Origin: a virus
Reading direction: 5' to 3' (one strand)
DNA: 64,000 nt
IMG/VR virus record: IMGVR_UViG_3300010401_000036
Location: 3,382 to 67,381 of that record
Made by a program: the position numbers and the translations under genes. The notes below the pieces were generated by a model that saw nothing but the letters and a program-made list of their open reading frames with translations, ran no database searches and was not told the origin of the DNA. Positions 21,558 to 30,860 of the stretch are shown one piece after another; position 1 is the stretch's first letter; the number at the start of each line of letters is the position of its first letter.

Positions 21558-22082
21558 TTAGCCAGTCTCCTTGCCATCGCTCGCATATTCGCCGTGCAGC
21601 GCTGCGGAGGCCTTCAGATAAGCGGCGTGGGCCAACTCTGGCGTATCAAAGTATCCGAGATGCTGCCGCACGCCATCTTTGGTGGCGATAGCCCGATATC
21701 TAATTGATCGCCTTTTCTGCACAGCCTGAACGCCCTTTAAGTTGCAACTCTTGTTTCGGTATTTACGACAATTTGCCTTGTTCTGTGAACCCGTAGCCTC
21801 TCTTAGATTTTCCCATTTGTCATTCGCCGGATTGCGATCAACGTGGTCCACCTGATGTTTTGGCCATGATCCGGTAACAATCAGCCAGATTATTCTTGAG
21901 ACCCGGTAAGCCTTCCCGCCGATCTTAATATAGCGATAGCCTTCAGGATGGTCTTGGCCTGCCTCTGTCCCTGACGGGATTCTCCCTGCTACTCCTGCTG
22001 CGTTTCTCCACCTTAAACATCCGTCATTGGGATCGTATGTGAACAAGTGCCGTACATGCGCTGCGGTTAGGTCTTTCAACAT
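21558..22082 (-). CDS. HNH-AP2 homing endonuclease
   Basis: YDPNDG.L.W, VDHVDR...NDKWENLREAT..QN..N, AP2 HLGYFDT.E.AH.AY. Confidence 0.92.
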   Translation of the reverse strand: MLKDLTAAHVRHLFTYDPNDGCLRWRNAAGVAGRIPSGTEAGQDHPEGYRYIKIGGKAYRVSRIIWLIVTGSWPKHQVDHVDRNPANDKWENLREATGSQNKANCRKYRNKSCNLKGVQAVQKRRSIRYRAIATKDGVRQHLGYFDTPELAHAAYLKASAALHGEYASDGKETG

Positions 22083-22149
22083 TGAGGTTTCTCCTTCTGT
22101 GAGAAACCTAACCGTATCATTTAGCGGAGTGAGTTACAACAAATACAGA

Positions 22150-23064
22150 TCATGCGGTCGGAAACTCCCCCCACGCTGCTCGTGGGTCATTGATGCCGAA
22201 TGAGTAACGTTCATATGCCTTGACAAGGAGGTTATCTGTAACATTATCCACCCACATGTCGCTCTCATACGGAATGCGCAGCATATGAATGAGTCCCTCG
22301 ATGTTCGTGGTGAGGAACCACGCGAAGTTCGAGGTGAGGAAATCGAGAACGATGAATCCCTCGGGAAGGCCGCCGGAGAGAGACAGGATGGCGTTCACGT
22401 CGTTGTCCGCGGTGCCGGGGCGCAGCTCGGTCTTGGTGAGGCGAATCGCGACCGCTTCAAGGTTCGGCGGTACGACCAGCTTGCGGGCCCGAGCCAAGAT
22501 CCTCATGCCGCGCTCGTTGACGAACTGAGCGCGCACGTTGGTCATGTTCGCAAGCAGCGTCGACTCGTTCAGAGACTTCGGCGTGCTGGACGTGTTGGCC
22601 CATGTTCCACCGTCGTAGGGATGCGCGGTGGAGAAGAATGCAACGCCGTCGCCGACCTGGCTCGCGTTGTATGTCGTGCCGAGGTTGAAGATGTTGGCGG
22701 CCTGAATTTCCTTGAACTGCGCGAACGCTTCCTGGAGCTTCAGGTTGGTCGGGTTGAACTGGGCCTTGTACAGGTTGTCGTCGATCGCCTTGCGCGTGAT
22801 CGCGTAGCCAAGGGCCACTTCCACATGGATGAACGCCCATGTGAAGCGCTCGCCAGCATTGTTGTCGAACTGGGTTGCCGCACCCTCGTCCTTGAGGTAC
22901 GGCAGCGCCACGAACGCCATTTGGGTGGAGCGCTCCACCGCCATTGAGGACTTGTGGGTCTTAAAGACCTTGTCCCATTGACGACTTATCATGTCGTACG
23001 AACCACGTACGTCAAACAATCCCGGCAGCAACTCTGAACGGACGTTTGCCAGACTAATCGGCAT
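22150..23064 (-). CDS. major capsid protein
   Basis: ELLPGL, K.EG....FD, ALGYAIT...I.DNLY, GDG.AFFS.AHP, LVVPP.L, YERYSFG..DPR..WG. Confidence 0.9.
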   Translation of the reverse strand: MPISLANVRSELLPGLFDVRGSYDMISRQWDKVFKTHKSSMAVERSTQMAFVALPYLKDEGAATQFDNNAGERFTWAFIHVEVALGYAITRKAIDDNLYKAQFNPTNLKLQEAFAQFKEIQAANIFNLGTTYNASQVGDGVAFFSTAHPYDGGTWANTSSTPKSLNESTLLANMTNVRAQFVNERGMRILARARKLVVPPNLEAVAIRLTKTELRPGTADNDVNAILSLSGGLPEGFIVLDFLTSNFAWFLTTNIEGLIHMLRIPYESDMWVDNVTDNLLVKAYERYSFGINDPRAAWGEFPTA

Positions 23065-23185
23065 TTACGTGGCTCCTATTGTAAGTAGCGGAGCCAAATG
23101 CCATAATGGCGGGCCCGCCGTACGTTGCTGCGCGCGACGGGCCCTTGATCGTCGATCCGCTGTTACCGGAAGGACAACCCGTCGA

Positions 23186-23716
23186 ATGGATATCACTCTC
23201 ACAGAAGAATGGCGACCCGTTCCGGTCGCGAATCTCGGCGACTTCTATGAAGTCAGCAATCTCGGCCAGGTCAGAAGCCTTGATCGCGTTTGCTACGGAC
23301 TTAAGGCCAGACGCGTTGATGGGAAAATTCTCAGGCCAAGCACGAACAAATTCGGATACAGAAACGTCAATCTCTTCCGAGATGGACAACCCAAGTCGAT
23401 CCACGTTCACCGACTTGTTGCCATCGCGTTTATCCCCAATCCCGAAAAGCTGCCGATGGTCAACCACGTTGATGGGAACAAATCCAACAACGTTGTTACG
23501 AACTTGGAATGGGTGGACGATAGAGCCAATCGACAGCACGCCATCAACATCGGCCGCATCACTCGCTTCAAAAAGCTCCTGACTTCGGAGGAGATCACCG
23601 AAATCAGAGCCTTGGGTAGAACCATGAGTCAATCCGAAATAGCCAAGCGATATGGATGCACACAGACCAACATTTCGTTGATCCTGAACGGCCATACCCA
23701 CGTTGGTTTCGGGTAA
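23186..23716 (+). CDS. NUMOD4-HNH homing endonuclease (opposite strand)
   Basis: EEWRPV, YEVSNLGQVRS (NUMOD4); VHRLVA.AFIPNP...VNH.DGNK.NN...NLEW; C-terminal HTH. Confidence 0.92.
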   Translation: MDITLTEEWRPVPVANLGDFYEVSNLGQVRSLDRVCYGLKARRVDGKILRPSTNKFGYRNVNLFRDGQPKSIHVHRLVAIAFIPNPEKLPMVNHVDGNKSNNVVTNLEWVDDRANRQHAINIGRITRFKKLLTSEEITEIRALGRTMSQSEIAKRYGCTQTNISLILNGHTHVGFG

Positions 23717-23721
23717 GATCA

Positions 23722-24324
23722 TCACAGGATACCCGTGTTACCCTGGCGCTGGAGCGAGTTGTTGAAGCCGACAATGACCCAGTTGTAGTTCGTGGTTGGG
23801 TCAGAGCCGTTGCCAACGCCCGGGTAGAGCTGGAGAACCTTGAACGGCATGAGAGCCGCGGACGAGATCGAGGCGAAGTCGATCGTGTAACTCGAGAAGC
23901 CGCCGCCAACCGTGGTGCCGCCGGCCCCGGTCGTGAACCCGATGTTGTTGCCGATCGCCGTGGCTGGGATAGCCGTCAGGAGCGCTGCGACCTTGAACAT
24001 GGCGTTGGGCGCGTCGATCACATAGGCCGTGGAGTCGGCGCCTGCGGCCGCTGCGGGATACCAGGGAAGCCAACCGGGGACGCCGCCCTTCGGGGTATAC
24101 TGGCAACCTTGGAAAATACCGATAAGGCCGGTGGAAACGCTGGAGCCGGAGGTGCAGGGCTGGATGTAGGGACCGAGGGATGCCGACTTCTGAACTGCGT
24201 CACCGAAGAAAATGGCGGTCGCGTAGGTCGACTGGATCTGGTACTTGGACAACTGGTAGTCGGGAGCCCCGCCCGGCAGGTAGCCGAAGTGCGCGAAGCC
24301 GAACTGCGCTTGGGTGTTAGCCAT
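23722..24324 (-). CDS. capsid-associated structural protein upstream of MCP
   Basis: MAN..A.FG, Y.TAIF.GD.V, G.F.GC.Y, AYVID.PN motifs typical of the gene preceding this MCP type. Confidence 0.75.
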   Translation of the reverse strand: MANTQAQFGFAHFGYLPGGAPDYQLSKYQIQSTYATAIFFGDAVQKSASLGPYIQPCTSGSSVSTGLIGIFQGCQYTPKGGVPGWLPWYPAAAAGADSTAYVIDAPNAMFKVAALLTAIPATAIGNNIGFTTGAGGTTVGGGFSSYTIDFASISSAALMPFKVLQLYPGVGNGSDPTTNYNWVIVGFNNSLQRQGNTGIL

Positions 24325-24482
24325 GACAAGCCCTTGACTTTTAAGGCCTCGTCCAGCGCTTGCCGGGGTGCGATTGCCAGAAAGTCACAACGGCTTGTTG
24401 CGACAGAATGCCAAGGGACGATCTATCGTCTCGCTTGGCCGCTCAACCTCCTGCCACTGGCTGGAGGGAACTGAATTTCGGC

Positions 24483-24511
24483 AAAATGCTAGATAAATCA
24501 GAGAATGTCAA
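24483..24511 (-). promoter_or_regulatory. putative sigma70 promoter for the capsid genes
   Basis: Minus strand TTGACA-N17-CATTTT in the intergenic region. Confidence 0.45.
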
Positions 24512-24690
24512 GTGGGTGTGGACTGCTCAAAGCATCTCAGAGCTGCCGCTGCTGGGCCCGGGACACTGTTTGCATAAATCCAGCGTCTAATAGTGGAAGT
24601 GTCGACTTCAAGGGCGGCAGCCATCTTTGTCTGCCACCCTCGATTACCATATAGCTTCTGACCTATAGAGATAAGTTCCTTAGCCGTCAC
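24508..24690 (-). CDS. small HTH DNA-binding protein coupled to ro60
   Basis: GTG start overlapping the 3' end of ro60; WQTKMAAALEVDTSTIRRW helix-turn-helix. Confidence 0.7.
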   Translation of the reverse strand: MTAKELISIGQKLYGNRGWQTKMAAALEVDTSTIRRWIYANSVPGPAAAALRCFEQSTPT

Positions 24691-25984
24691 GTTCGACCTC
24701 GTGAACGAAGCGCAACACACCTTCAGAAAACCCATCAATGTGGGTCCAAGCCCCATACCCAACGCCGTTCTTGTTCGACGCGACGTTGATCATATAGCCC
24801 TTGGCGAAAGCGTTTGGCACCGCATCGTGGCTCTGTTCGTCCGTGATGACGATCAATCGGTCAGCCCTCACATTGGCATTGATCCACGCCACCGCCGCGC
24901 CAAGATTGGTGCCGTTATGAGGCTGAGACCGCACAATAGCATCAACGCCAGCCATACCCCGTCGCGGGGGTACCTCAACAATTCCATCCGAGAACGTGAA
25001 TAGCCTAATATCGCCTGGAATTATCGCGCCCAACGCCGCAGCCGCATCGATCCGCCTCATGTCCGATTTCTGCGACAATGCCCAATCCATCGATCCGGAC
25101 ACATCGACCATCACCACAGTTTTTCCGAGATAGACAGGAAGTTCCGTGATTGCCTCGCAAAGCGCCTGATCAAGATATGGCTCAAACTGTGGAGCAGCCC
25201 TCGCCGCTGCGACGTAGCGGAAGGGAAACACTCGCTGCGCTCCGCCCTGCCGTGCTACAATTGCCTGCCGAACCAGATCGCTATCGACGCCAGCAGCCGC
25301 CATATTACGCAGGTTTCGGAGTAGCGCCAGATAGCCGATCCCGCTCTCGCGTAATAGCCGCTCGAAAGTCTCTCGCTTGTCTTTCCCGCCGGAAAGCGCG
25401 ACCTCCCAAGTGTCGGGAATCTTAAGCGTGCGATCCTTCACCCTCTTCCATAGAGCCGACTGCTCGTCATTGGCCGGCTTCGGCCGAGCAATTCGCAAAA
25501 CGTCGCGAAGCTTCACGGCCCCGTCTCGATCGTACTTTCCGAGTTGGTATTCGTCGAACTTGGCGAAGGCCTGAGCAAGACCCTTGCGCATCTGCCGTGG
25601 TACGCTCTTACGGCCGTTGCGCCAATAGACGGTCAGAAGCTCTCCCATCTCATCGGCGCGGGAGATCACTCGTGCCGTGGTGTCCGCCATCATCGCAGGC
25701 CCGGTCTTGCTGAGGATATCGAGCAAAAGCAGGGGGACATGCCGCAGGTTGAACACTTTGCGCGCCTCGATCGCCAGCGCCGCTAATTCGGCCGGCTTCA
25801 CCAGCGCTGCGGTTTCGGCGATTCGCTCAGCAATAGATTTGCCATCCTCGTAGAACTCGTTTTCCCACAATAGGCATGATAACACCGATCGGCGCAGTTG
25901 TTCGATCGGCTTGAGGCGACCGAAAGCCGGCGCTCCTTCAGTGGTCTTGGCGGTATTTTTCGGGGAAACATTCAAACGGGCCAT
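24680..25984 (-). CDS. rsr: Ro60 / TROVE-domain RNA-binding protein (Rsr-like)
   Basis: T.EGAPA, LLWE..FYE.G, FDEYQL.KY, TWE..LS, ALLRNLRN, PFR...A, and vWA MIDAS VDVSGSM...VITDEQ. Confidence 0.93.
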   Translation of the reverse strand: MARLNVSPKNTAKTTEGAPAFGRLKPIEQLRRSVLSCLLWENEFYEDGKSIAERIAETAALVKPAELAALAIEARKVFNLRHVPLLLLDILSKTGPAMMADTTARVISRADEMGELLTVYWRNGRKSVPRQMRKGLAQAFAKFDEYQLGKYDRDGAVKLRDVLRIARPKPANDEQSALWKRVKDRTLKIPDTWEVALSGGKDKRETFERLLRESGIGYLALLRNLRNMAAAGVDSDLVRQAIVARQGGAQRVFPFRYVAAARAAPQFEPYLDQALCEAITELPVYLGKTVVMVDVSGSMDWALSQKSDMRRIDAAAALGAIIPGDIRLFTFSDGIVEVPPRRGMAGVDAIVRSQPHNGTNLGAAVAWINANVRADRLIVITDEQSHDAVPNAFAKGYMINVASNKNGVGYGAWTHIDGFSEGVLRFVHEVERDG

Positions 25985-26020
25985 CAGTATTCTCCCATGG
26001 CCTCACGGCTGCCTGCCGAA

Positions 26021-26175
26021 TGATCTAAGTGAGACTGAGCAAGTGACGAAATCAGTACATTTCAGTGCTCTACCACTGAGCTACCGGGACTTCTCCCGAG
26101 TTGGATTCGAACCAACGACCCCTGGCTCCAAAAGCGAAGTAACTGATTTCTGCAGCGTCAATCCCACTTAGATCA
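26021..26175 (-). ncRNA. yrlA: YrlA-type Y RNA with circularly permuted tRNA-like domain
   Basis: Ends pair (UGAUCUAAGUG/CACUUAGAUCA); inside, T-arm GUUGG-UUCGAAU-CCAAC, closed acceptor-like hairpin UCGGGA-GAAG-UCCCGG, then D-arm GCUC-AGUGGUA-GAGC; 36 nt upstream of ro60. Confidence 0.88.
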
Positions 26176-26275
26176 ACAACGGAAACTAGCAAGTAGCGAG
26201 AACGGGATATGGCCACTTAAGGCCGCTCTATTGCGAAGAAGTATCCGTTACTCTGCAGCGTAGTTTCCGTTGTTG
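26174..26275 (-). ncRNA. second Y-RNA-like hairpin
   Basis: 15-bp terminal stem CAACAACGGAAACUA/UAGUUUCCGUUGUUG; shares CGCUGCAG, UACUUC and ACUUGC with the YrlA-like RNA. Confidence 0.75.
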
Positions 26276-26341
26276 CCCGGCAAGCAACGAACTCAGCATC
26301 ATCGTTTCAAGAGAAGTAGCTGAGCCCTTCAGCGCGGGCAA
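26273..26341 (-). ncRNA. third, minimal Y-RNA-like hairpin
   Basis: Terminal stem UUGCCCG/CGGGCAA; same core CGCUGAAG...UACUUC...GCUUGC. Confidence 0.7.
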
Positions 26342-26344
26342 ATC

Positions 26345-26374
26345 ATATATCGTGCATTATGCGCGGTTTGTCAA
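26345..26374 (-). promoter_or_regulatory. putative sigma70 promoter for the Y RNA-ro60 unit
   Basis: Minus strand TTGACA, ~17-nt spacer, GATATAT, ending a few nt before the first Y-like hairpin. Confidence 0.6.
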
Positions 26375-26378
26375 TAAC

Positions 26379-26402
26379 AAAAAGCCGCCCCGAAGGGCGG
26401 CA
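26379..26402 (-). terminator. Rho-independent terminator
   Basis: Minus strand GCCGCCC-TTCG-GGGCGGC-TTTTT after the Ig-like gene. Confidence 0.85.
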
Positions 26403-26419
26403 GTCGCGGGAAAACCCCC

Positions 26420-26737
26420 TTAGCTGACGGTCGCGAGGATCTGAATGCTGGTGAGGACCTGTGGCGCCGCCTCCACCGTCACATCGATCAGTCCCTTGAA
26501 CTCGACACCTCCCACGGTAACGGCCACGTTGACCGTGTCGCTGCCGGCCGCAATGGCGAGTTCGCTTGCGGTCAGGCCGCTCGTGGAAGGCGTCAGAGTG
26601 CCGGTTTCGGGGTTGACGTCGGACCATACCGGAGGCGAATCCGGGGTCGGTGTGGTCTGCATCGGATTACCATTCTGGTCCAGAAAGATAATCGCGAAGT
26701 CGACTTTGTGGCCTACGGTGAGGGTTACTGCGCTCAT
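26420..26737 (-). CDS. Ig-like domain protein
   Basis: All-beta pattern (VTLTVG, DQNGNP, PVWS, G...V.V.V, IDVTV); AAGGA RBS before MSAVTL. Confidence 0.65.
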   Translation of the reverse strand: MSAVTLTVGHKVDFAIIFLDQNGNPMQTTPTPDSPPVWSDVNPETGTLTPSTSGLTASELAIAAGSDTVNVAVTVGGVEFKGLIDVTVEAAPQVLTSIQILATVS

Positions 26738-26930
26738 GTGGATAATCCTTTGATGGCGGTGGTGATGGTGACGCGGGCGTATAATGGCGATCAGCAAGAC
26801 GCTTGTCAGTCTTTGGTGACGATGCCGCATCTTGTACCTGCTGAAATTGACGTGGCCTAACAAACCGACAAGCGTATAGTTCCGACAGATGAATACCATG
26901 GAGAGATGACAATAAAAAGGCCGTTAAAAA

Positions 26931-27009
26931 TGGCTCCTCGGGGCAGATTTGAACTACCGACCTTCAGACCGTTTCCGATCCGATGCTCTAACCGCTGAGC
27001 TACCGAGGA
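26931..27009 (-). tRNA. tRNA-like RNA with Asn-like acceptor stem and no canonical anticodon loop
   Basis: UCCUCGG/CCGAGGA-G-CCA acceptor, canonical D and T arms; anticodon arm UCGGA-UCGGAAACGG-UCUGA (10-nt loop, or 8-bp stem with GAAA tetraloop). Confidence 0.85.
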
Positions 27010-27012
27010 ATA

Positions 27013-27088
27013 TGGCGCCTCTGGCAGGATTTGAACCTGCGACCAGCCGAGTTAGAATCGGCCGCTCTACCAACTGAGCTACAGGGGC
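27013..27088 (-). tRNA. amber suppressor tRNA (anticodon CUA)
   Basis: GCCCCUG-UA-GCUC AGUUGGUA GAGC-G-GCCGA UU[CUA]AC UCGGC-UGGUC-GCAGG UUCAAAU CCUGC-CAGAGGC-G-CCA; one C4:A69 mismatch. Confidence 0.9.
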
Positions 27089-27097
27089 TTGACCTTG

Positions 27098-27478
27098 TCA
27101 CTTTAGGAGGGGCAATCCTTTCGTGATTGATTTGGCTTCATTGCGGGGAAGGGGTCCGATGCCGATCGCAGTGACTATTTGCGAACCATCGAAGTGCGGC
27201 GGCATGACGTGATTTTCCTCAATCACCATGGCACATGGCAGCTTAGCAAGCTTAGCGCGGTGGAAAAGGTCGCACAGCTCGCGCTCGCCGGGGACGGTCA
27301 GAACAATCTTGGTGCCGCCATCTTCAAGATAGGCCGCTGTGTTCTCTGGAGGGGCTGTAAGAAACGAATCAAGAAATGCATGGCCGGCTTGGGAAGCCGC
27401 TTTGCCAGATGTCATTTCTAGGTCTTCACGGATAATCGCATATGCAACAGGCTGATTTGAATGGTCAATCTAACGCAT
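27098..27478 (-). CDS. pth2: peptidyl-tRNA hydrolase type 2 (Pth2) with in-frame TAG at codon 3
   Basis: AYAIIREDLEMTSGKAASQAGHA, KIVL.V, VTAIGIGP, ITKGLPLL are Pth2 motifs; AAGGA-N8-ATG CGT TAG lies in the same frame, 21 codons above the ORF-track ATG. Confidence 0.85.
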
Positions 27479-27500
27479 TGATATCGTCCTTGGGTGAGGC

Positions 27501-27535
27501 TCCTGTAGGGCGAAACATAGCGTCGCCCTACAGGA
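27501..27535. repeat. perfect 13-bp inverted repeat upstream of pth2
   Basis: TCCTGTAGGGCGA-N9-TCGCCCTACAGGA with no U tract on the minus strand. Confidence 0.7.
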
Positions 27536-27548
27536 TTGCAAGTGGAAA

Positions 27549-28313
27549 TTACGCCGCCGGCAGCATTGCAATCTGAGCTGCGTCCATGGGCGCCACAGGC
27601 GCCATCTGTTGCTGGGCCTGAGCCTCCACAACGTCGAGATACCGGCCGGCATAATCGAACGGACCGACATGGCTCATGCGGTGCCCGATGTTGGCCCACA
27701 CCGACCCGCCGCACTGGCCCCACCGAATGCAGAATGACAGATCCTCGGAGATCAGGCCGCGGTCAGGCACGTCCATCTTTTCGAACAGTCGGAGAAGCCG
27801 ATTCGTTCCTGCTTGGCGCAATGTTTCGCCGGCCGGGTGCAGGGTCAACCGGGTGTCGATCAGCTCTGGAAACTTCTCGACCATAGCGGCGATCGCGTCG
27901 CGCCTGATCAGAGTGACACCGAAACCCACTCCTTCGACCCTCATGAAATCACCGCGGCGCTCCGTAAGTGGCGTACCACTGCCAGACCCAGCCCACGAAA
28001 GTGGCATTTTGCGTTGAGGGTAGATGGTACCGACGATCGGCTCGTTGAACATCAGCATGTCGGTAACCAACTCAGGCGGCCAGCCCATATCGCTGTCGAT
28101 AAAAAGGATGTGGGTGCTATTCGGAAGCGTATCGTACCAAATTGTCAGAGCCATCGACCGCAGTTCAGCAATATCCGGGAATGACAGAGTTGAGATCCCC
28201 CCGCCGATTCCCTTGCTCATCAAATGTTGACGAAGCGCGTGGGTGCTTAAAAATGTCGTCGCCGTGATAATCTGGCCAAATGCTGGAACAAAAATGAAGA
28301 TGTCGGTAGCCAT
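27549..28313 (-). CDS. GT-A fold glycosyltransferase
   Basis: THILFIDSD (DxD), GVGFG..LIRR, SEDLSFC.RW...GG.VW, HVG. Confidence 0.8.
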   Translation of the reverse strand: MATDIFIFVPAFGQIITATTFLSTHALRQHLMSKGIGGGISTLSFPDIAELRSMALTIWYDTLPNSTHILFIDSDMGWPPELVTDMLMFNEPIVGTIYPQRKMPLSWAGSGSGTPLTERRGDFMRVEGVGFGVTLIRRDAIAAMVEKFPELIDTRLTLHPAGETLRQAGTNRLLRLFEKMDVPDRGLISEDLSFCIRWGQCGGSVWANIGHRMSHVGPFDYAGRYLDVVEAQAQQQMAPVAPMDAAQIAMLPAA

Positions 28314-28840
28314 TATGAGGTCCTTCCATATTCCTTGTGAAGCCTGAGTGATGCTGTAACGTAAGCCGCATGAGCCTGTTCGGCCGTATCGAACATTCCG
28401 AGGTGTATTTCTTCGCCATCCGACTGGATAGTGGCTCGGAAACTGTTCTTATAGTCTCGTGTTACACCCTTGAATCCAGTGCTATTATCACATCGCCTCT
28501 TTCGATTCTTGGCGTTGTTAGCAGGGCTGCATTTTCTCAGGTTATCGATCCTATTGTCATCCCTATCGCAGTTTATGTGGTCAACCAACTCAGGCGGCCA
28601 CTCACCATGAACATAGAACCACGCCAACCTCGCTGCAGCATATCGGCGATTATTGATCGCTATTTGACGATAGCCTCCGCTATCAAGTCGGCCTGCAATG
28701 CATCCCTTTTGTTTTGGCATATATTTTGATGGATTTTTCCAAATAAAAATCCCAGTCTTTGGATCATAGTCCAAAAAATACAAAATTTCTTCATGCGTCA
28801 CTAAAGAGTTTGGCTTTCTCATCGCGGCATTCGGCTCCAA
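28313..28840 (-). CDS. HNH-AP2 homing endonuclease
   Basis: YDPKTGIF.W, VDHINCDRDDNRIDNLR, N.TGFKGV, HLGMFDTAEQAH.AY. Confidence 0.92.
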   Translation of the reverse strand: MEPNAAMRKPNSLVTHEEILYFLDYDPKTGIFIWKNPSKYMPKQKGCIAGRLDSGGYRQIAINNRRYAAARLAWFYVHGEWPPELVDHINCDRDDNRIDNLRKCSPANNAKNRKRRCDNSTGFKGVTRDYKNSFRATIQSDGEEIHLGMFDTAEQAHAAYVTASLRLHKEYGRTS

Positions 28841-29499
28841 AAGATATCTGTACTTTCTCTGGACCGCTCCAGAGCCTCATTTAGGATCAAAGCATAGTCT
28901 CTTGGAATGTTGAAATCTAAGGGAGACTGCCGGTGGACTAAATTAATTTCATTGTCCCATAGATAATAGCTATTCCAATATTTTTCCTTACCTAAAAGGC
29001 CATCGATCCTCTCCGAGTCAAACCGGAGGTATTCAACAAACGGATATTTACTAATAAATCTCAATTCTTGGCCGACTATCCACACGATCCATCTATGGTG
29101 GTGATACCCATAGAATGGCGGCGATCCGCCATCTACGCCGCGACCCAGCTCAGCGATTGGTGAGGGGCATTCAATGTACCCAGCGTTGCCAACCCGAGAC
29201 ATCTCCTTGATAAGGAGGAATGGGTTGTACATGTCCTCAAGCGTGTGGCGGCAGAAGACGAAATCGAACTCCTTGTCTGCAAACGGAAGTGGCTGCGTAC
29301 CGAGATCCACCTTGATCAGGTTGTCCACCCCAGGAACGTCCACAAAGTCAACGTAGACGTCCGCTCGCTTGAATGGCGCGTGGCCGGGCCCGACTTCCAG
29401 CACTCTTGCGTCTTTCGGGATGACTGTTTCGGTGAGGTAGTCCATGACGGACTGAATAGGAGCCCAATGCTTCTTGTCGTTTTGGGTGAGAGCCATCAA
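28819..29499 (-). CDS. class I SAM-dependent methyltransferase
   Basis: VLEVGPG, LPFADKEFDFVFCRHTLED..NP...KEMSRV. Confidence 0.85.
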   Translation of the reverse strand: MMALTQNDKKHWAPIQSVMDYLTETVIPKDARVLEVGPGHAPFKRADVYVDFVDVPGVDNLIKVDLGTQPLPFADKEFDFVFCRHTLEDMYNPFLLIKEMSRVGNAGYIECPSPIAELGRGVDGGSPPFYGYHHHRWIVWIVGQELRFISKYPFVEYLRFDSERIDGLLGKEKYWNSYYLWDNEINLVHRQSPLDFNIPRDYALILNEALERSRESTDIFWSRMPR

Positions 29500-29508
29500 A
29501 AAGTCCTG

Positions 29509-30666
29509 TCAGAGAAATTCAGCGTGATCTGGCATCTTCGTTGTGGGAAAGTCTACCTTCCCTTCTTTCCAATCGAATAGCCATTGGTTCGTGTGGGTTT
29601 GCAAGCACTGGGTGCCACAGCGATCCCGAGGGTCGAACTGATCACTGGCGAGATAGCGCACCATTTCCCAGTATCTGTCACTGGCGAAGATGTCTCTGAA
29701 TCGCGTGCTGACGATCGAATCAACATGGAATTTCTTGAACTTCTCGTTGAAGTGAAATCCGCAGCTCGTGATGAGGCCATTTCCGCTCATCTGAAGCTGG
29801 AAGGGAACGCCAAGGCATCGGCTGTAGTGCCGCTTGCCTTCATCAGCCAGCCGCGCCCATTTCACCACGACGCGGAACGTATCATCACCCATCTTCTCGA
29901 CTTCTCGGAAGGTGTCGTACAGAGCGTCGTACTTCTTGTAATCGACGCCAAGGTGACCCTCATCGTTATCGCTGCAATGCTTGTAGATCAGATACCCGGG
30001 CCTGATCTCCTGCGCCAGCTTAGCCAGCGGCATGATCTGATCATGGAACTGTGGCATTGTGACCATCTGCATGTTCACGACGCACGGCAGGTTATCGCGG
30101 CGCACGATTTCCATAGCGTCCTTGACGTTCTGGATAACCTGCCAGTAGTCCCGCTCCTTGAGGCCCATAATCTCCTTGTAGCGCGGCATCTCACCGGCCG
30201 AGAAGTTGAACCTCAGATAGGTGATGTGCGGAAGGATGCGCTCCAAAACCTTTTTCTTGAGCCGCACTCCGTTCGTTCCGATGCCGATCTTGATGCCGAG
30301 CTTGGCGGCGTATTCGATTGACTCCTCGTACCACGGCACAACCGTCGATTCGCCGTCGCTGATGAGACTGATGCCCTTGACGCCGATCTCAGCGGCATCC
30401 TCCAAAAACTCGAATGCGTGCTTCTTGGTGATCTCTCCGCCATCCTCAGAAGCCTGCATCGTCGCGAAACAAAAAACGCACGCCGCATTGCACTTTCGCG
30501 TCCACGCTACGTCCATCGTGACCGGGGCTATCCGCTCACCACGATCCCACGCCAGAACGCGATCTTTCCACCAGCCGACTTTGCTAGCATCAAGAATAAG
30601 ATCATTGACCGAGATGGTGGGAGACCCGGTGACGACGTGATCAAAGAACTCCGGTAGATTGCTCAT
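29509..30666 (-). CDS. radical SAM / SPASM-twitch protein
   Basis: CNAACVFC (CxxxCxxC), I.TNG, C-terminal C.......Q.SGNG....C and C...C. Confidence 0.9.
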   Translation of the reverse strand: MSNLPEFFDHVVTGSPTISVNDLILDASKVGWWKDRVLAWDRGERIAPVTMDVAWTRKCNAACVFCFATMQASEDGGEITKKHAFEFLEDAAEIGVKGISLISDGESTVVPWYEESIEYAAKLGIKIGIGTNGVRLKKKVLERILPHITYLRFNFSAGEMPRYKEIMGLKERDYWQVIQNVKDAMEIVRRDNLPCVVNMQMVTMPQFHDQIMPLAKLAQEIRPGYLIYKHCSDNDEGHLGVDYKKYDALYDTFREVEKMGDDTFRVVVKWARLADEGKRHYSRCLGVPFQLQMSGNGLITSCGFHFNEKFKKFHVDSIVSTRFRDIFASDRYWEMVRYLASDQFDPRDRCGTQCLQTHTNQWLFDWKEGKVDFPTTKMPDHAEFL

Positions 30667-30860
30667 ATGCGCTTTCTTTCTTCCTCAGTCATGAGGTTTC
30701 GGAGTTTCGAGTCATCAGGCATCGTCTCTTTGAACACCTCGATCGGAAGTCCAGTGGACACCCGAAGATGCTTCTCCAGATCGAACATAAGCTTGGCCTG
30801 AAGAGATCCTGCGATCTTCGGGCCGAACTTCATGATGATCTCGTAGTCCTTGTTAGCCAT
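30663..30860 (-). CDS. small protein coupled to the radical SAM gene
   Basis: Overlapping start/stop with neighbours; DDSKLR motif. Confidence 0.6.
   Translation of the reverse strand: MANKDYEIIMKFGPKIAGSLQAKLMFDLEKHLRVSTGLPIEVFKETMPDDSKLRNLMTEEERKRI

What the first reader, a model, noticed from the sequence alone, without database searches (positions are those of the whole stretch)
24508..27535. Integrated tRNA-centred module: Pth2, suppressor tRNA, anticodon-less tRNA, Y RNAs, Ro60 and HTH, placed just before the capsid genes
Seen in sequence: five structured RNAs and two RNA/tRNA-handling proteins lie in 3 kb on one strand, in two units split by a terminator and promoter (26345-26402). 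Established: bacterial Rsr/Y RNA loci are associated with RNA repair and respond to tRNA damage, and phage tRNAs can offset host tRNA-cleaving defences. No RtcB ligase is visible in this window. Inference: a phage system that protects translation or counters tRNA-targeting defence during late expression, possibly regulated by the coupled HTH gene.
Basis: inference. Interest (0 to 1): 0.85.

Follow-up and report, generated by a model that had tools for sequence, protein, structure and literature searches.

The report
Amber-locked Pth2 and its key tRNA
A soil phage carries a peptidyl-tRNA hydrolase gene blocked by a stop codon at its third codon, placed beside the one tRNA that can read that stop and an anticodon-less tRNA look-alike, next to a separate, ordinary Ro60/Y-RNA unit.

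Summary
They form two separable cassettes, not one obligate module.

pth2 starts 63 nt upstream of the obvious Met, as ATG CGT TAG. This puts an in-frame amber at codon 3, and the first beta-strand of the fold lies behind it.

Among 114 unique related loci:
- 84 carry an in-frame TAG; 58 of these have tRNA-CUA in the flank and none has tRNA-UCA.
- 4 carry TGA; 3 have tRNA-UCA in the flank and the fourth has one elsewhere in its genome.
- 1 carries TAA.
- 19 need a +1 step at the stop; 7 have neighbouring tRNAs with enlarged anticodon loops bearing a four-base anticodon, complementary to stop+1 in 6 of the 7.
- 3 are ungated and 3 undetermined.

Pth2 synthesis is therefore locked by a codon that only the cassette's own tRNA reads. 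The purpose of the lock is inferred, not shown. My searches found no description of it. The Ro60/Y-RNA unit is a known kind.

The parts
27487..27491 (-). Shine-Dalgarno-like AAGGA, 8 nt upstream of the true pth2 start
   Evidence: Read from the sequence. The same SD-ATG arrangement occurs in relatives.
27473..27478 (-). Two-codon leader ATG CGT
   Evidence: The leader is ATG plus one codon in 47 of 77 short-leader amber loci.
27470..27472 (-). In-frame amber codon (codon 3 of pth2), followed by A
   Evidence: It is the only TAG in the window with an SD, an ATG within 8 codons upstream and at least 80 open codons downstream.
27098..27478 (-). pth2, full reading frame (126 codons plus stop); the standard-code ORF starts only at Met22 (27415)
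   Evidence: PF01981. Residues 14-124 align to residues 5-114 of the solved Pth2 2zv3_A. PHROG 1866 matches from profile position 20 for the short form.
27013..27088 (-). Amber suppressor tRNA: anticodon CUA, 7-nt loop UUCUAAC, CCA encoded
26931..27009 (-). Anticodon-less tRNA-like RNA: acceptor, D and T arms and CCA kept; central arm is 8 bp with a GAAA tetraloop
   Evidence: The family shows covariation. Model R1 scores it 91.5 bits.
26420..26737 (-). 105-aa ORF of unknown family, a passenger between the cassettes
   Evidence: No Pfam or PHROG match. A 53%-identical homolog lies near the pth2 of L055.
26384..26401 (-). Intrinsic terminator that ends the upstream unit
26345..26374 (-). Promoter-like TTGACA-N17/18-(G)ATATAT for the Y RNA-Ro60 unit
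   Evidence: Read from the sequence. Not listed by the scan. A like site lies in L045.
26274..26340 (-). Y RNA 1 (about 67 nt)
   Evidence: Fold. Shared motifs.
26174..26275 (-). Y RNA 2 (about 102 nt)
   Evidence: Fold z -5.85. Shared motifs.
26022..26174 (-). Y RNA 3, YrlA-like, with the permuted tRNA-like module (T arm, then D arm)
   Evidence: Rfam YrlA 43.4 bits, below gathering. Fold z -5.34. Homolog in L023.
24680..25984 (-). Ro60/Rsr ortholog (TROVE plus vWA)
24508..24690 (-). 60-aa putative HTH protein; its GTG start overlaps the Ro60 stop
   Evidence: Homologs follow Ro60 in L015 and L045.

Best explanation
The stretch holds two separable cassettes.

(1) A recoding cassette. pth2 is translated from ATG 27478. 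After one sense codon the ribosome meets UAG. Release factor ends the chain there unless the cassette's own tRNA-CUA inserts an amino acid. Only then are the first beta-strand and the rest of Pth2 made. Pth2 output therefore depends on the abundance, charging and competitiveness of that tRNA: a lock and key carried together.

The lock-and-key pairing is shown by comparison with relatives. The purpose is inferred. The most likely purpose is to tie extra peptidyl-tRNA (or N-blocked aminoacyl-tRNA) hydrolase capacity to the moment and the degree at which the phage's stop-reading tRNA is active, or simply to delay Pth2 until then.

The third member, a tRNA-shaped RNA that cannot decode, is a conserved partner of unknown role. 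My best guess is a decoy or competitor for factors that recognise the tRNA body and CCA end.

(2) An ordinary phage Ro60 unit: a promoter, three Y RNAs, Ro60, and a translationally coupled small HTH. It probably acts in RNA quality control as bacterial Rsr/Y RNPs do. Its adjacency to cassette 1 is loose.
For: Shown by the window sequence:
- The SD-ATG-CGT-TAG leader is in frame with pth2.
- No ATG, GTG or TTG lies between the TAG and Met22.
- Residues 14-22 (AIIREDLEM), upstream of Met22, align to strand 1 of solved Pth2 structures. Pfam matches the short form only from profile position 13 of 115.

Comparative evidence. I examined 125 loci, which reduce to 114 unique ones:
- 84 have an in-frame TAG. 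Of these, 77 have a start 2-9 codons upstream, 74 of them ATG.
- 4 have TGA, 1 has TAA, 19 are +1 class, 3 are ungated and 3 are undetermined.
- Control: TAG is the upstream bounding stop of 117 of 457 other ORFs in the same loci.
- Codon alignments show synonymous change starting right after the stop.

The key tRNA matches the lock:
- tRNA-CUA lies in the flank of 58 of 84 amber loci, at a median distance of 194 nt. tRNA-UCA lies in the flank of none of them.
- tRNA-UCA lies in the flank of 3 of 4 opal loci (Fisher p 2.8e-5).
- L130, 84% identical to the window's Pth2, has TGA at the same codon and a tRNA-UCA.
- Agrobacterium phage Atu_ph07 has a TGA leader and a tRNA-UCA. Sinorhizobium phage Phosso has a TAG leader and two tRNA-CUA.
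- The ungated L060 has 15 tRNAs in its flank and no suppressor.
- All 18 +1-class leaders tested give an uninterrupted Pth2 when the stop plus one base is read as a single step. Seven of them have neighbouring tRNAs with enlarged anticodon loops and the anticodons UCUA for TAGA, GCUA for TAGC and AUUA for TAAC.

The tRNA-like RNA:
- In an alignment of 18 sequences, 19 of 24 predicted pairs carry compensatory change and all 18 caps are GNAA.
- It sits within a few hundred nt of pth2 or the suppressor tRNA in at least 22 loci.

The window is not recoded as a whole:
- Coding density is 0.913 with the standard code and 0.934 with TAG read as sense. TAG ends 13 of 85 ORFs.
- None of 7 other TAG-joined ORF pairs has a family match across the TAG.

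The Ro60 unit. Chen et al. 2014 (PMC4201824, passages read) report YrlA-like RNAs beside Ro60 in 254 bacteria and 22 phages.
Against: - There are no expression, proteomic or read-through data. No RNA run was listed.
- The amino acid inserted at the stop is unknown (one search was inconclusive).
- In some relatives an ATG lies just before strand 1 (for example L038, L048, L056), so read-through is not strictly required there.
- 26 of 84 amber loci show no tRNA-CUA in the fetched flank. Many are short contigs or huge genomes.
- 3 loci have a TAG but no visible start (L068, L072, L075).
- The loci are related to one another, so the p-values overstate independence.
- Part of the classification was set by hand after the automatic classifier mis-assigned +1 cases.
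- In L195 the first anticodon base (A) does not pair with the fourth codon base (C) unless it is modified.
- The purpose of the lock and the role of the tRNA-like RNA are inference only.
Confidence: 0.75

Rival explanations
1. One reading: all seven parts are one integrated system, regulated by the HTH, that protects translation against tRNA-targeting defence during late expression.
For: - The parts are adjacent on one strand in the window. They recur together in L045 as Ro60, HTH, tRNAs, tRNA-CUA, amber pth2 and tRNA-like RNA, all within 3 kb.
- TROVE is found in 2 of 5 Pth2-bearing viral contigs, although Ro60 is rare in phages: 83 of 50,697 GenBank records.
- L016 has a tRNA-CUA and an ATG-CTG-TAG mini-ORF right after Ro60.
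- Iyer et al. 2021 (PMC7824862, passages) place both PTH2 and TROVE among jumbo-phage RNA-repair functions.
- Pth reverses tRNA-acetylating toxins (PMC9241777, passages).
Against: - 0 of 19 Ro60 loci have Pth2 within up to 6 kb.
- 0 of 5 Ro60 contigs encode PTH2.
- Of the other 124 Pth2 loci searched, only L045 has a Ro60 match in its flank.
- The close relative L131 lacks the Ro60 unit at the same site.
- A terminator and a promoter-like site separate the two units.
- The HTH is found only next to Ro60.
Confidence: 0.15
2. The TAG is not read through. The two-codon ORF is a plain upstream mini-ORF or leader. Pth2 starts downstream, at Met22 or at a non-standard codon such as the ATT after the TAG. 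The tRNA-CUA serves other targets.
For: - By the standard code the ORF starts at Met22, and GenBank annotators of Phosso and Atu_ph07 chose that Met.
- The codon after the stop is often ATT or GTN.
- Some relatives have an ATG just before strand 1.
Against: - Starting at Met22 removes strand 1 of the fold.
- The stop type co-varies with the neighbouring suppressor's anticodon.
- The +1 class has leaders in another frame, with four-base-complementary tRNAs in 6 of the 7 loci that have such a tRNA. Re-initiation does not explain this.
- No other client of the tRNA was found in the window.
Confidence: 0.08
3. The phage has reassigned TAG genome-wide (a code 15-like phage), and pth2 is just one of many recoded genes.
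For: Suppressor tRNAs are typical of TAG-recoded phages (Borges et al. preprint, 10.1101/2021.08.26.457843, passages).
Against: - Coding density barely changes when TAG is read as sense (0.913 to 0.934). TAG terminates 13 of 85 ORFs.
- None of 7 TAG-joined ORF pairs is spanned by a family match.
- There is only one leader-type TAG site in 64 kb.
Confidence: 0.02

Closest known systems
Stop-codon recoding with phage suppressor tRNAs as a regulator of late genes (Borges et al., preprint 10.1101/2021.08.26.457843; passages read)
   Same: A phage-encoded suppressor tRNA makes genes with in-frame stops translatable in a standard-code host. A timing role is proposed.
   Different: Here a single gene is locked, at its first few codons. 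The genome otherwise uses TAG as a stop, and lock and key travel together as a cassette of about 0.6 kb. The word 'hydrolase' does not occur in that text.
bldA tRNA-Leu(UUA) gating of adpA in Streptomyces (recalled; mentioned in PMC10732093, passages)
   Same: One dedicated tRNA controls translation of a gene that carries its rare codon.
   Different: That is a sense codon in a cellular developmental circuit, and the tRNA and its target are unlinked. Here it is a stop or four-base codon, and the tRNA is adjacent.
prfB (RF2) programmed +1 frameshift at an early in-frame UGA (recalled)
   Same: An early in-frame stop must be bypassed to make a translation-termination or recycling factor. The +1-class relatives shift frame exactly at the stop.
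   Different: prfB uses a slippery CUU and an internal SD, with no special tRNA, and its product reads the stop itself. No slippery codon is conserved here, a matching tRNA is encoded alongside, and the window's own version is in frame.
Engineered UAGA/UCUA quadruplet pairs (PMC4764823; passages)
   Same: tRNAs with an extra U at position 33.5, giving anticodon UCUA, decode UAGA. Relatives L050, L062 and L153 pair TAGA with 8-nt loops that contain UCUA.
   Different: Those pairs were made in the laboratory. These are natural and co-vary with the fourth base (GCUA with TAGC). The window itself has the triplet form.
Bacterial and phage Rsr(Ro60)-YrlA/YrlB RNPs (Chen et al. 2014, PMC4201824; passages)
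   Same: Ro60 with several Y RNAs encoded just upstream on the same strand, one of them carrying a tRNA-like module.
   Different: The match is below the Rfam YrlA gathering score. The published GNCGAAN0-1G motif is replaced by CGCUG(C/A)AG. No RtcB is present. A small HTH is coupled to Ro60.
tRNA-like domain of tmRNA, and lambda bar minigenes with Pth (both recalled; tmRNA reviews seen only in the search listing)
   Same: tmRNA also has a tRNA body with no anticodon. Phage tmRNAs lie near pth2 in L027, L029, L030 and L163. A two-codon ORF followed by a stop is the classic source of peptidyl-tRNA drop-off that Pth must clear.
   Different: The tRNA-like RNA has no G3:U70 pair and no mRNA part. 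Nothing shows that the leader is toxic.

Membership tests
PTH2 (PF01981) | Profile match above the curated cut-off | tested here: met
   56.7 bits against a cut-off of 23, E 3.5e-15. Solved Pth2 2zv3_A matches at E 6e-15.
PTH2 (PF01981) | Complete fold, including the N-terminal strand | tested here: met
   Met only if the TAG is read. Residues 14-124 of the read-through product align to residues 5-114 of 115 in 2zv3_A. The standard-code ORF starts at profile position 13.
PTH2 (PF01981) | Catalytic residues and hydrolase activity on peptidyl-tRNA | not tested
   Invariant columns are listed, but I did not map them to published catalytic residues. Activity needs an assay.
Amber suppressor tRNA | Cloverleaf with a 7-nt anticodon loop carrying CUA | tested here: met
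   ARAGORN. Rfam tRNA 69.9 bits. Loop UUCUAAC.
Amber suppressor tRNA | Charged by a synthetase and used at UAG | not testable with these tools
   Similarity to 289 typed phage tRNAs gave no consistent identity.
tRNA (RF00005), for the RNA at 26931-27009 | Anticodon loop able to pair with a codon | tested here: not met
   The score is above gathering (51.3 bits), but the central arm is a closed 8-bp helix with a GAAA cap. All 18 relatives have a GNAA cap. It is tRNA-like, not a decoding tRNA.
Genome-wide TAG reassignment (code 15-type phage) | Many genes with in-frame TAG; low coding density under the standard code | tested here: not met
Ro60/Rsr (TROVE, PF05731) | TROVE domain above cut-off, followed by a vWA domain | tested here: met
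   TROVE 57.3 bits against 23. The vWA models fall below their cut-offs (19-23 bits), but on the expected residues 289-385. PHROG 850 RNA-binding protein, E 1.5e-51.
YrlA (RF02553) | Covariance-model score at or above gathering | tested here: not met
   43.4 bits against 69, covering model positions 23-87 only. No YrlA hit reached gathering in 12 related Ro60 loci.
YrlA (RF02553) | Encoded next to Ro60 on the same strand, long closing stem, tRNA-like T and D arms | tested here: met
YrlA (RF02553) | GNCGAAN0-1G motif near the 5' end (Chen et al. 2014) | tested here: not met
   All three Y RNAs instead carry CGCUG(C/A)AG. They work like Y RNAs, but membership of the curated family is not shown.
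prfB-type programmed +1 frameshift | Slippery codon before the stop and an internal SD stimulator | tested here: not met
   The window is in frame. In the +1-class relatives the codon before the stop varies: TTG, TCA, AAC, TCG, CTA, CAG and others.

The most novel reading that the evidence does not exclude
This family of phage cassettes is a natural set of private codon-tRNA pairs used as a single-gene switch. The same position of pth2 carries UAG, UGA, UAA or a four-base codon (UAGA, UAGC, UAAC and others). Each cassette carries the tRNA that reads its version, including tRNAs with 8-9-nt anticodon loops that decode four bases or force a +1 step at a stop. That would be natural, selected quadruplet decoding. 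A non-decoding tRNA mimic would be the third component of a system that senses or buffers the state of the tRNA pool during infection.
Probability: 0.5. Interest if true: 0.95.

Novelty: new variant of a known kind. Interest (0 to 1): 0.85.

Why it matters
- **A new use for phage suppressor tRNAs.** In standard-code phages they have had no clear client. Here the client is identified: the neighbouring pth2 gene. This gives a compact natural translational lock and key that can be tested with a reporter in a day.
- **Systematic mis-annotation.** The gene is mis-annotated in databases, truncated at the internal Met in Phosso and Atu_ph07.
- **Natural four-base codons.** The relatives would be the first natural, co-varying four-base codon/tRNA pairs that my searches could find. 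This bears on why the code is triplet, and it offers ready-made orthogonal pairs for genetic code expansion.
- **A new class of tRNA mimic.** The conserved anticodon-less tRNA-like RNA has no known function.
- **The Ro60/Y-RNA unit is ordinary.**

Tried and rejected
- Megablast of 22000-30700 against GenBank phages found no match.
- Rfam at gathering threshold on 12 related Ro60 loci found no YrlA. I used motif and alignment comparison instead.
- Initiator-tRNA idea (that the UAG is a start): rejected by eye. The 37 suppressor tRNAs printed have paired 1:72 ends, and the window has an SD-ATG.
- Amino-acid identity of the suppressors, by similarity to 289 typed tRNAs: no consistent answer.
- Automatic leader classifier: it mis-assigned several +1 cases. 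I replaced it with the hand list, as overrides.
- The binomial test printed used a provisional count. Use instead.
- Sequencing runs: no RNA holder listed. Contigs of four DNA runs did not cover the TAG, and the joints reported were cross-matches of tRNA-like arms. This gives no evidence either way.
- Earlier findings of this scan: nothing on record.
- Genome collection, one genome per species: only one relative, a MAG contig, with a TAG and a tRNA-CUA.
- Literature: searches found no paper on a stop-gated phage Pth2, natural phage quadruplet tRNAs or tetraloop-capped tRNA-likes. 'Suppressor' occurs 0 times in Iyer et al. 2021. Supplements were not seen. The phage list in the supplement of Chen et al. 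2014 may include relatives of this Ro60 unit.

Full report
**What the window is.** It is part of a 67,381-base IMG/VR virus record that CheckV estimates as complete. Its DNA is held by soil and rhizosphere metagenome runs. In the region of the finding, all genes run on the minus strand.

**Check of the observation.** Reading 5' to 3' on the minus strand, the order is as follows.
- A Pth2 gene: PF01981, 56.7 bits.
- A tRNA with anticodon CUA, 27088..27013.
- Four bases later, a second tRNA-shaped RNA, 27009..26931. ARAGORN mis-calls it tRNA-Pro. Rfam aligns it to tRNA with an oversized central loop. On folding, its central arm is a closed 8-bp helix capped by GAAA.
- A 105-aa ORF with no family match.
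- A strong intrinsic terminator, 26401..26384.
- A TTGACA-N17/18-ATATAT promoter-like site. It is visible in the sequence but was not listed by the scan.
- Three tandem structured RNAs.
- Ro60, with TROVE and vWA domains.
- A 60-aa ORF whose GTG start overlaps the Ro60 stop. Its HTH matches are weak.
- The capsid genes.

No RtcB is present in the record.

**The Ro60 unit is of a known kind.**
- The three RNAs (Y1 26340..26274, Y2 26275..26174, Y3 26174..26022) each have a closing stem. They share CGCUG(C/A)AG and UACUUC on the 5' side and CUUGC on the 3' side.
- Y3 contains the permuted tRNA-like core of YrlA. Rfam scores it 43.4 bits, E 1.4e-7, below the gathering score of 69.
- The closest Ro60 relative, L023 (74% identical), has a clear homolog of Y3 and two more units with the same motifs. 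L045 has three as well, behind a like promoter.
- Ro60 homologs occur in 83 GenBank phage records. The three records I opened each have a non-coding gap upstream of the gene.
- Chen et al. 2014 (PMC4201824, passages) reported YrlA-like RNAs beside Ro60 in 254 bacteria and 22 phages.
- The published GNCGAAN0-1G motif is not present here, and the curated Rfam threshold is not met. I therefore call these Y RNAs by architecture and context, not members of RF02553.
- The HTH follows Ro60 in L015 and L045 as well.

**The new point: pth2 is locked by a stop codon.**
- The standard-code ORF starts at Met 27415. Pfam matches it only from profile position 13 of 115, and PHROG 1866 only from position 20 of 126.
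- Upstream and in frame lies AAGGA-N8-ATG CGT TAG ATT GAC ....
- When the TAG is read through, residues 14-124 align to residues 5-114 of the solved Pth2 2zv3_A. The first beta-strand (AIIREDLEM) therefore lies between the TAG and the annotated Met.
- No ATG, GTG or TTG lies between the TAG and that strand.

**The same design in relatives.** I collected 7 and then 44 viral loci, the best 80 of 309 metagenome relatives, and two cultured jumbo phages. I dropped L079 and L080 as doubtful homologs. The distant GenBank Pth2 genes L034-L036 were not counted; two of them are plainly ungated. That left 125 loci, of which 114 are unique.
- 84 have an in-frame TAG. 77 of them have a start 2-9 codons upstream: 74 ATG and 3 GTG. 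47 have just ATG plus one codon. The base after the TAG is A in 42, G in 31 and C in 4.
- 3 of the 84 have two TAGs, 3 have no visible start, and 1 has a long leader.
- 4 have an in-frame TGA and 1 has TAA.
- 19 need a +1 shift at the stop.
- 3 are ungated and 3 are undetermined.
- For comparison, TAG is the upstream bounding stop of 117 of 457 other ORFs in the same loci.
- Codon alignments of the window's closest relatives show synonymous third-position change beginning directly after the stop. This is the mark of translated sequence.

**The key matches the lock.**
- A tRNA-CUA lies in the fetched flank of 58 of the 84 amber loci. The median distance is 194 nt, and 44 are within 500 nt. None of the 84 has a tRNA-UCA.
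- 3 of the 4 opal loci have a tRNA-UCA and no CUA (Fisher p 2.8e-5). The loci are related, so this overstates independence.
- The fourth opal case is Agrobacterium phage Atu_ph07. It has a tRNA-UCA elsewhere in its genome and no CUA among the tRNAs I scanned. Its relative Sinorhizobium phage Phosso has a TAG leader and two tRNA-CUA.
- L130 is 84% identical to the window's Pth2. It has TGA at exactly the codon where its siblings have TAG, followed by a tRNA-UCA.
- By contrast, 1 of 19 Ro60 loci has a tRNA-CUA.
- The ungated L060 has 15 tRNAs in its flank and no suppressor.

**The +1 class.**
- In these loci the SD-ATG leader and its stop lie one frame behind pth2.
- All 18 leaders tested give an uninterrupted Pth2 of 124-168 residues when the stop plus the next base is read as one step.
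- In L159 and L162 the leader's own frame runs into further stops.
- Seven loci have a neighbouring tRNA with an enlarged anticodon loop bearing a four-base anticodon:
  - UCUA in 8-nt loops beside TAGA (L050, L062, L153).
  - GCUA in 9-nt loops beside TAGC (L184, L202), and in a loop read as 7 or 9 nt in L179, 2 kb away.
  - AUUA beside TAAC (L195), where the first base would need modification to pair.
- Engineered tRNAs with UCUA decode UAGA (PMC4764823, passages).
- These data cannot tell whether the natural tRNAs pair with four bases or bind the overlapping +1 triplet.

**The third partner.**
- Covariance model R1 and folding found tetraloop-capped, anticodon-less tRNA-like RNAs next to pth2 or its suppressor in at least 22 unique loci.
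- In 18 aligned examples, 19 of 24 pairs show compensatory change, including all 8 pairs of the long central arm. All 18 caps are GNAA: GCAA 11, GAAA 5, GUAA 1, GGAA 1.
- CCA is encoded. The acceptor stems vary, which argues against a single synthetase identity.
- Its role is unknown.

**One module or two?**
- 0 of 19 Ro60 loci have Pth2 within up to 6 kb, and 0 of 5 Ro60 contigs encode PTH2.
- 2 of 5 Pth2 contigs encode TROVE. One of them, L045, repeats the whole set within 3 kb but in a different order.
- L131 has a major capsid protein 89% identical to the window's. It has tRNA-CUA, pth2, the tRNA-like RNA and then the two capsid genes directly, without the 105-aa ORF or the Ro60 unit.
- The cassettes are therefore separable and mobile. 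They tend to land in the same kind of place.

**Not a recoded genome.**
- Coding density is 0.913 with the standard code and 0.934 with TAG as sense. TAG ends 13 of 85 ORFs.
- The pth2 site is the only leader-type TAG in 64 kb.
- None of 7 other TAG-joined ORF pairs is bridged by a family match.

**How it most likely works.**
- Shown by comparison with relatives: full-length Pth2 requires decoding of a stop (or a stop plus one base) placed right after the start, and the cassette carries the tRNA fit to do so.
- Inferred: termination at codon 3 gives nothing, so Pth2 output follows the activity of that tRNA against release factor. This acts as a delay or a dose-matching device.
- Why Pth2 in particular? 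Three lines bear on this.
  - Pth clears peptidyl-tRNA dropped from ribosomes, and it also clears N-acetyl-aminoacyl-tRNA made by TacT-type toxins (PMC9241777, passages).
  - Iyer et al. 2021 proposed ribosome rescue after tRNA cleavage as the role of jumbo-phage PTH2 (PMC7824862, passages).
  - Phage tmRNA genes lie near pth2 in L027, L029, L030 and L163.
- A stop-reading tRNA should itself raise read-through and stalling. Tying the remedy to the cause is the reading I favour, with low confidence.
- The two-codon leader also resembles lambda's bar minigenes, whose toxicity Pth relieves. This is recalled, not checked here.

**Novelty.** Phage suppressor tRNAs, phage PTH2 and phage Ro60/Y RNAs are each known. 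The single-gene lock and key, its stop and anticodon variants, the natural four-base pairs and the capped tRNA mimic did not appear in seven full-text searches or in the two most relevant texts. Supplements were not available.

Noticed in passing
window 22991-23716 (+): A NUMOD4/HNH_3 homing-endonuclease gene sits on the opposite strand between the two capsid genes. The close relative L131 has the two capsid genes adjacent without it, so it looks like a recent insertion. Two more HNH ORFs lie at 21558-22082 and 28313-28840.
   Followed up: partly
window 27502-27534 (-): A perfect 12-bp inverted repeat (CCTGTAGGGCGA ... TCGCCCTACAGG) lies between the stop of the upstream glycosyltransferase-like gene and the pth2 leader. 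No T run follows it. Its role is unknown.
   Followed up: no
window 26276-26288 with 26008-26020 (-): In the minimum-energy fold of the whole block, a long-range stem brackets Y RNAs 2 and 3. It may be a processing stem for the Y RNA-Ro60 transcript.
   Followed up: no
L159, L162, L179, L182, L184, L187, L195, L196, L202, L206 (just after the stop+1 site): In the +1 class, the 20-25 nt after the four-base site are conserved at the nucleotide level (TCT TGC GAA CGG ATT GGA CCG and variants). They read as conserved peptide in two frames. This may be an RNA signal that stimulates the recoding.
   Followed up: partly
L068, L072, L075: Here the tRNA-CUA ends only about 8-25 nt before the in-frame TAG, and no start codon is visible between them. 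How translation begins in these loci is unexplained.
   Followed up: partly
L069, L070, L071: The leaders carry two in-frame TAGs a few codons apart before pth2.
   Followed up: no
L016 7289-7430: A Ro60 gene is followed at once by a tRNA-CUA and an SD-ATG-CTG-TAG mini-ORF, without a Pth2. The contig ends 200 nt later.
   Followed up: no
L161 versus L165, L169, L177: An ochre version (ATG TTG TAA) of a leader that is ATG TTG TAG in sister loci. No tRNA lies in any of these flanks.
   Followed up: no
L130 563-638: In the opal-type close relative, the tRNA-like RNA has GUUA at its tip. It can also be drawn with a 6-nt loop UGUUAA that holds the Asn anticodon GUU. About half the tRNA-likes start U1-A72 with G73.
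   Followed up: no
L005 7386-7731; L027, L029, L030, L163: Phage-encoded tmRNAs: a permuted one near the Ro60 of Brevundimonas phage Kikimora, and standard ones within a few kb of pth2 in four loci.
   Followed up: no
L032 (Phosso, PV764938) and L033 (Atu_ph07, MF403008): The GenBank annotations start both Pth2 genes at the internal Met. They miss about 50 and 30 upstream codons that continue the frame behind a TAG and a TGA.
   Followed up: yes
window 27549-30666 (-): Upstream of pth2 lies a run of modification-type genes: a glycosyltransferase-like protein (PHROG 1574), an HNH, a methyltransferase and a radical SAM protein. A homolog of the first also precedes pth2 in L147.
   Followed up: no
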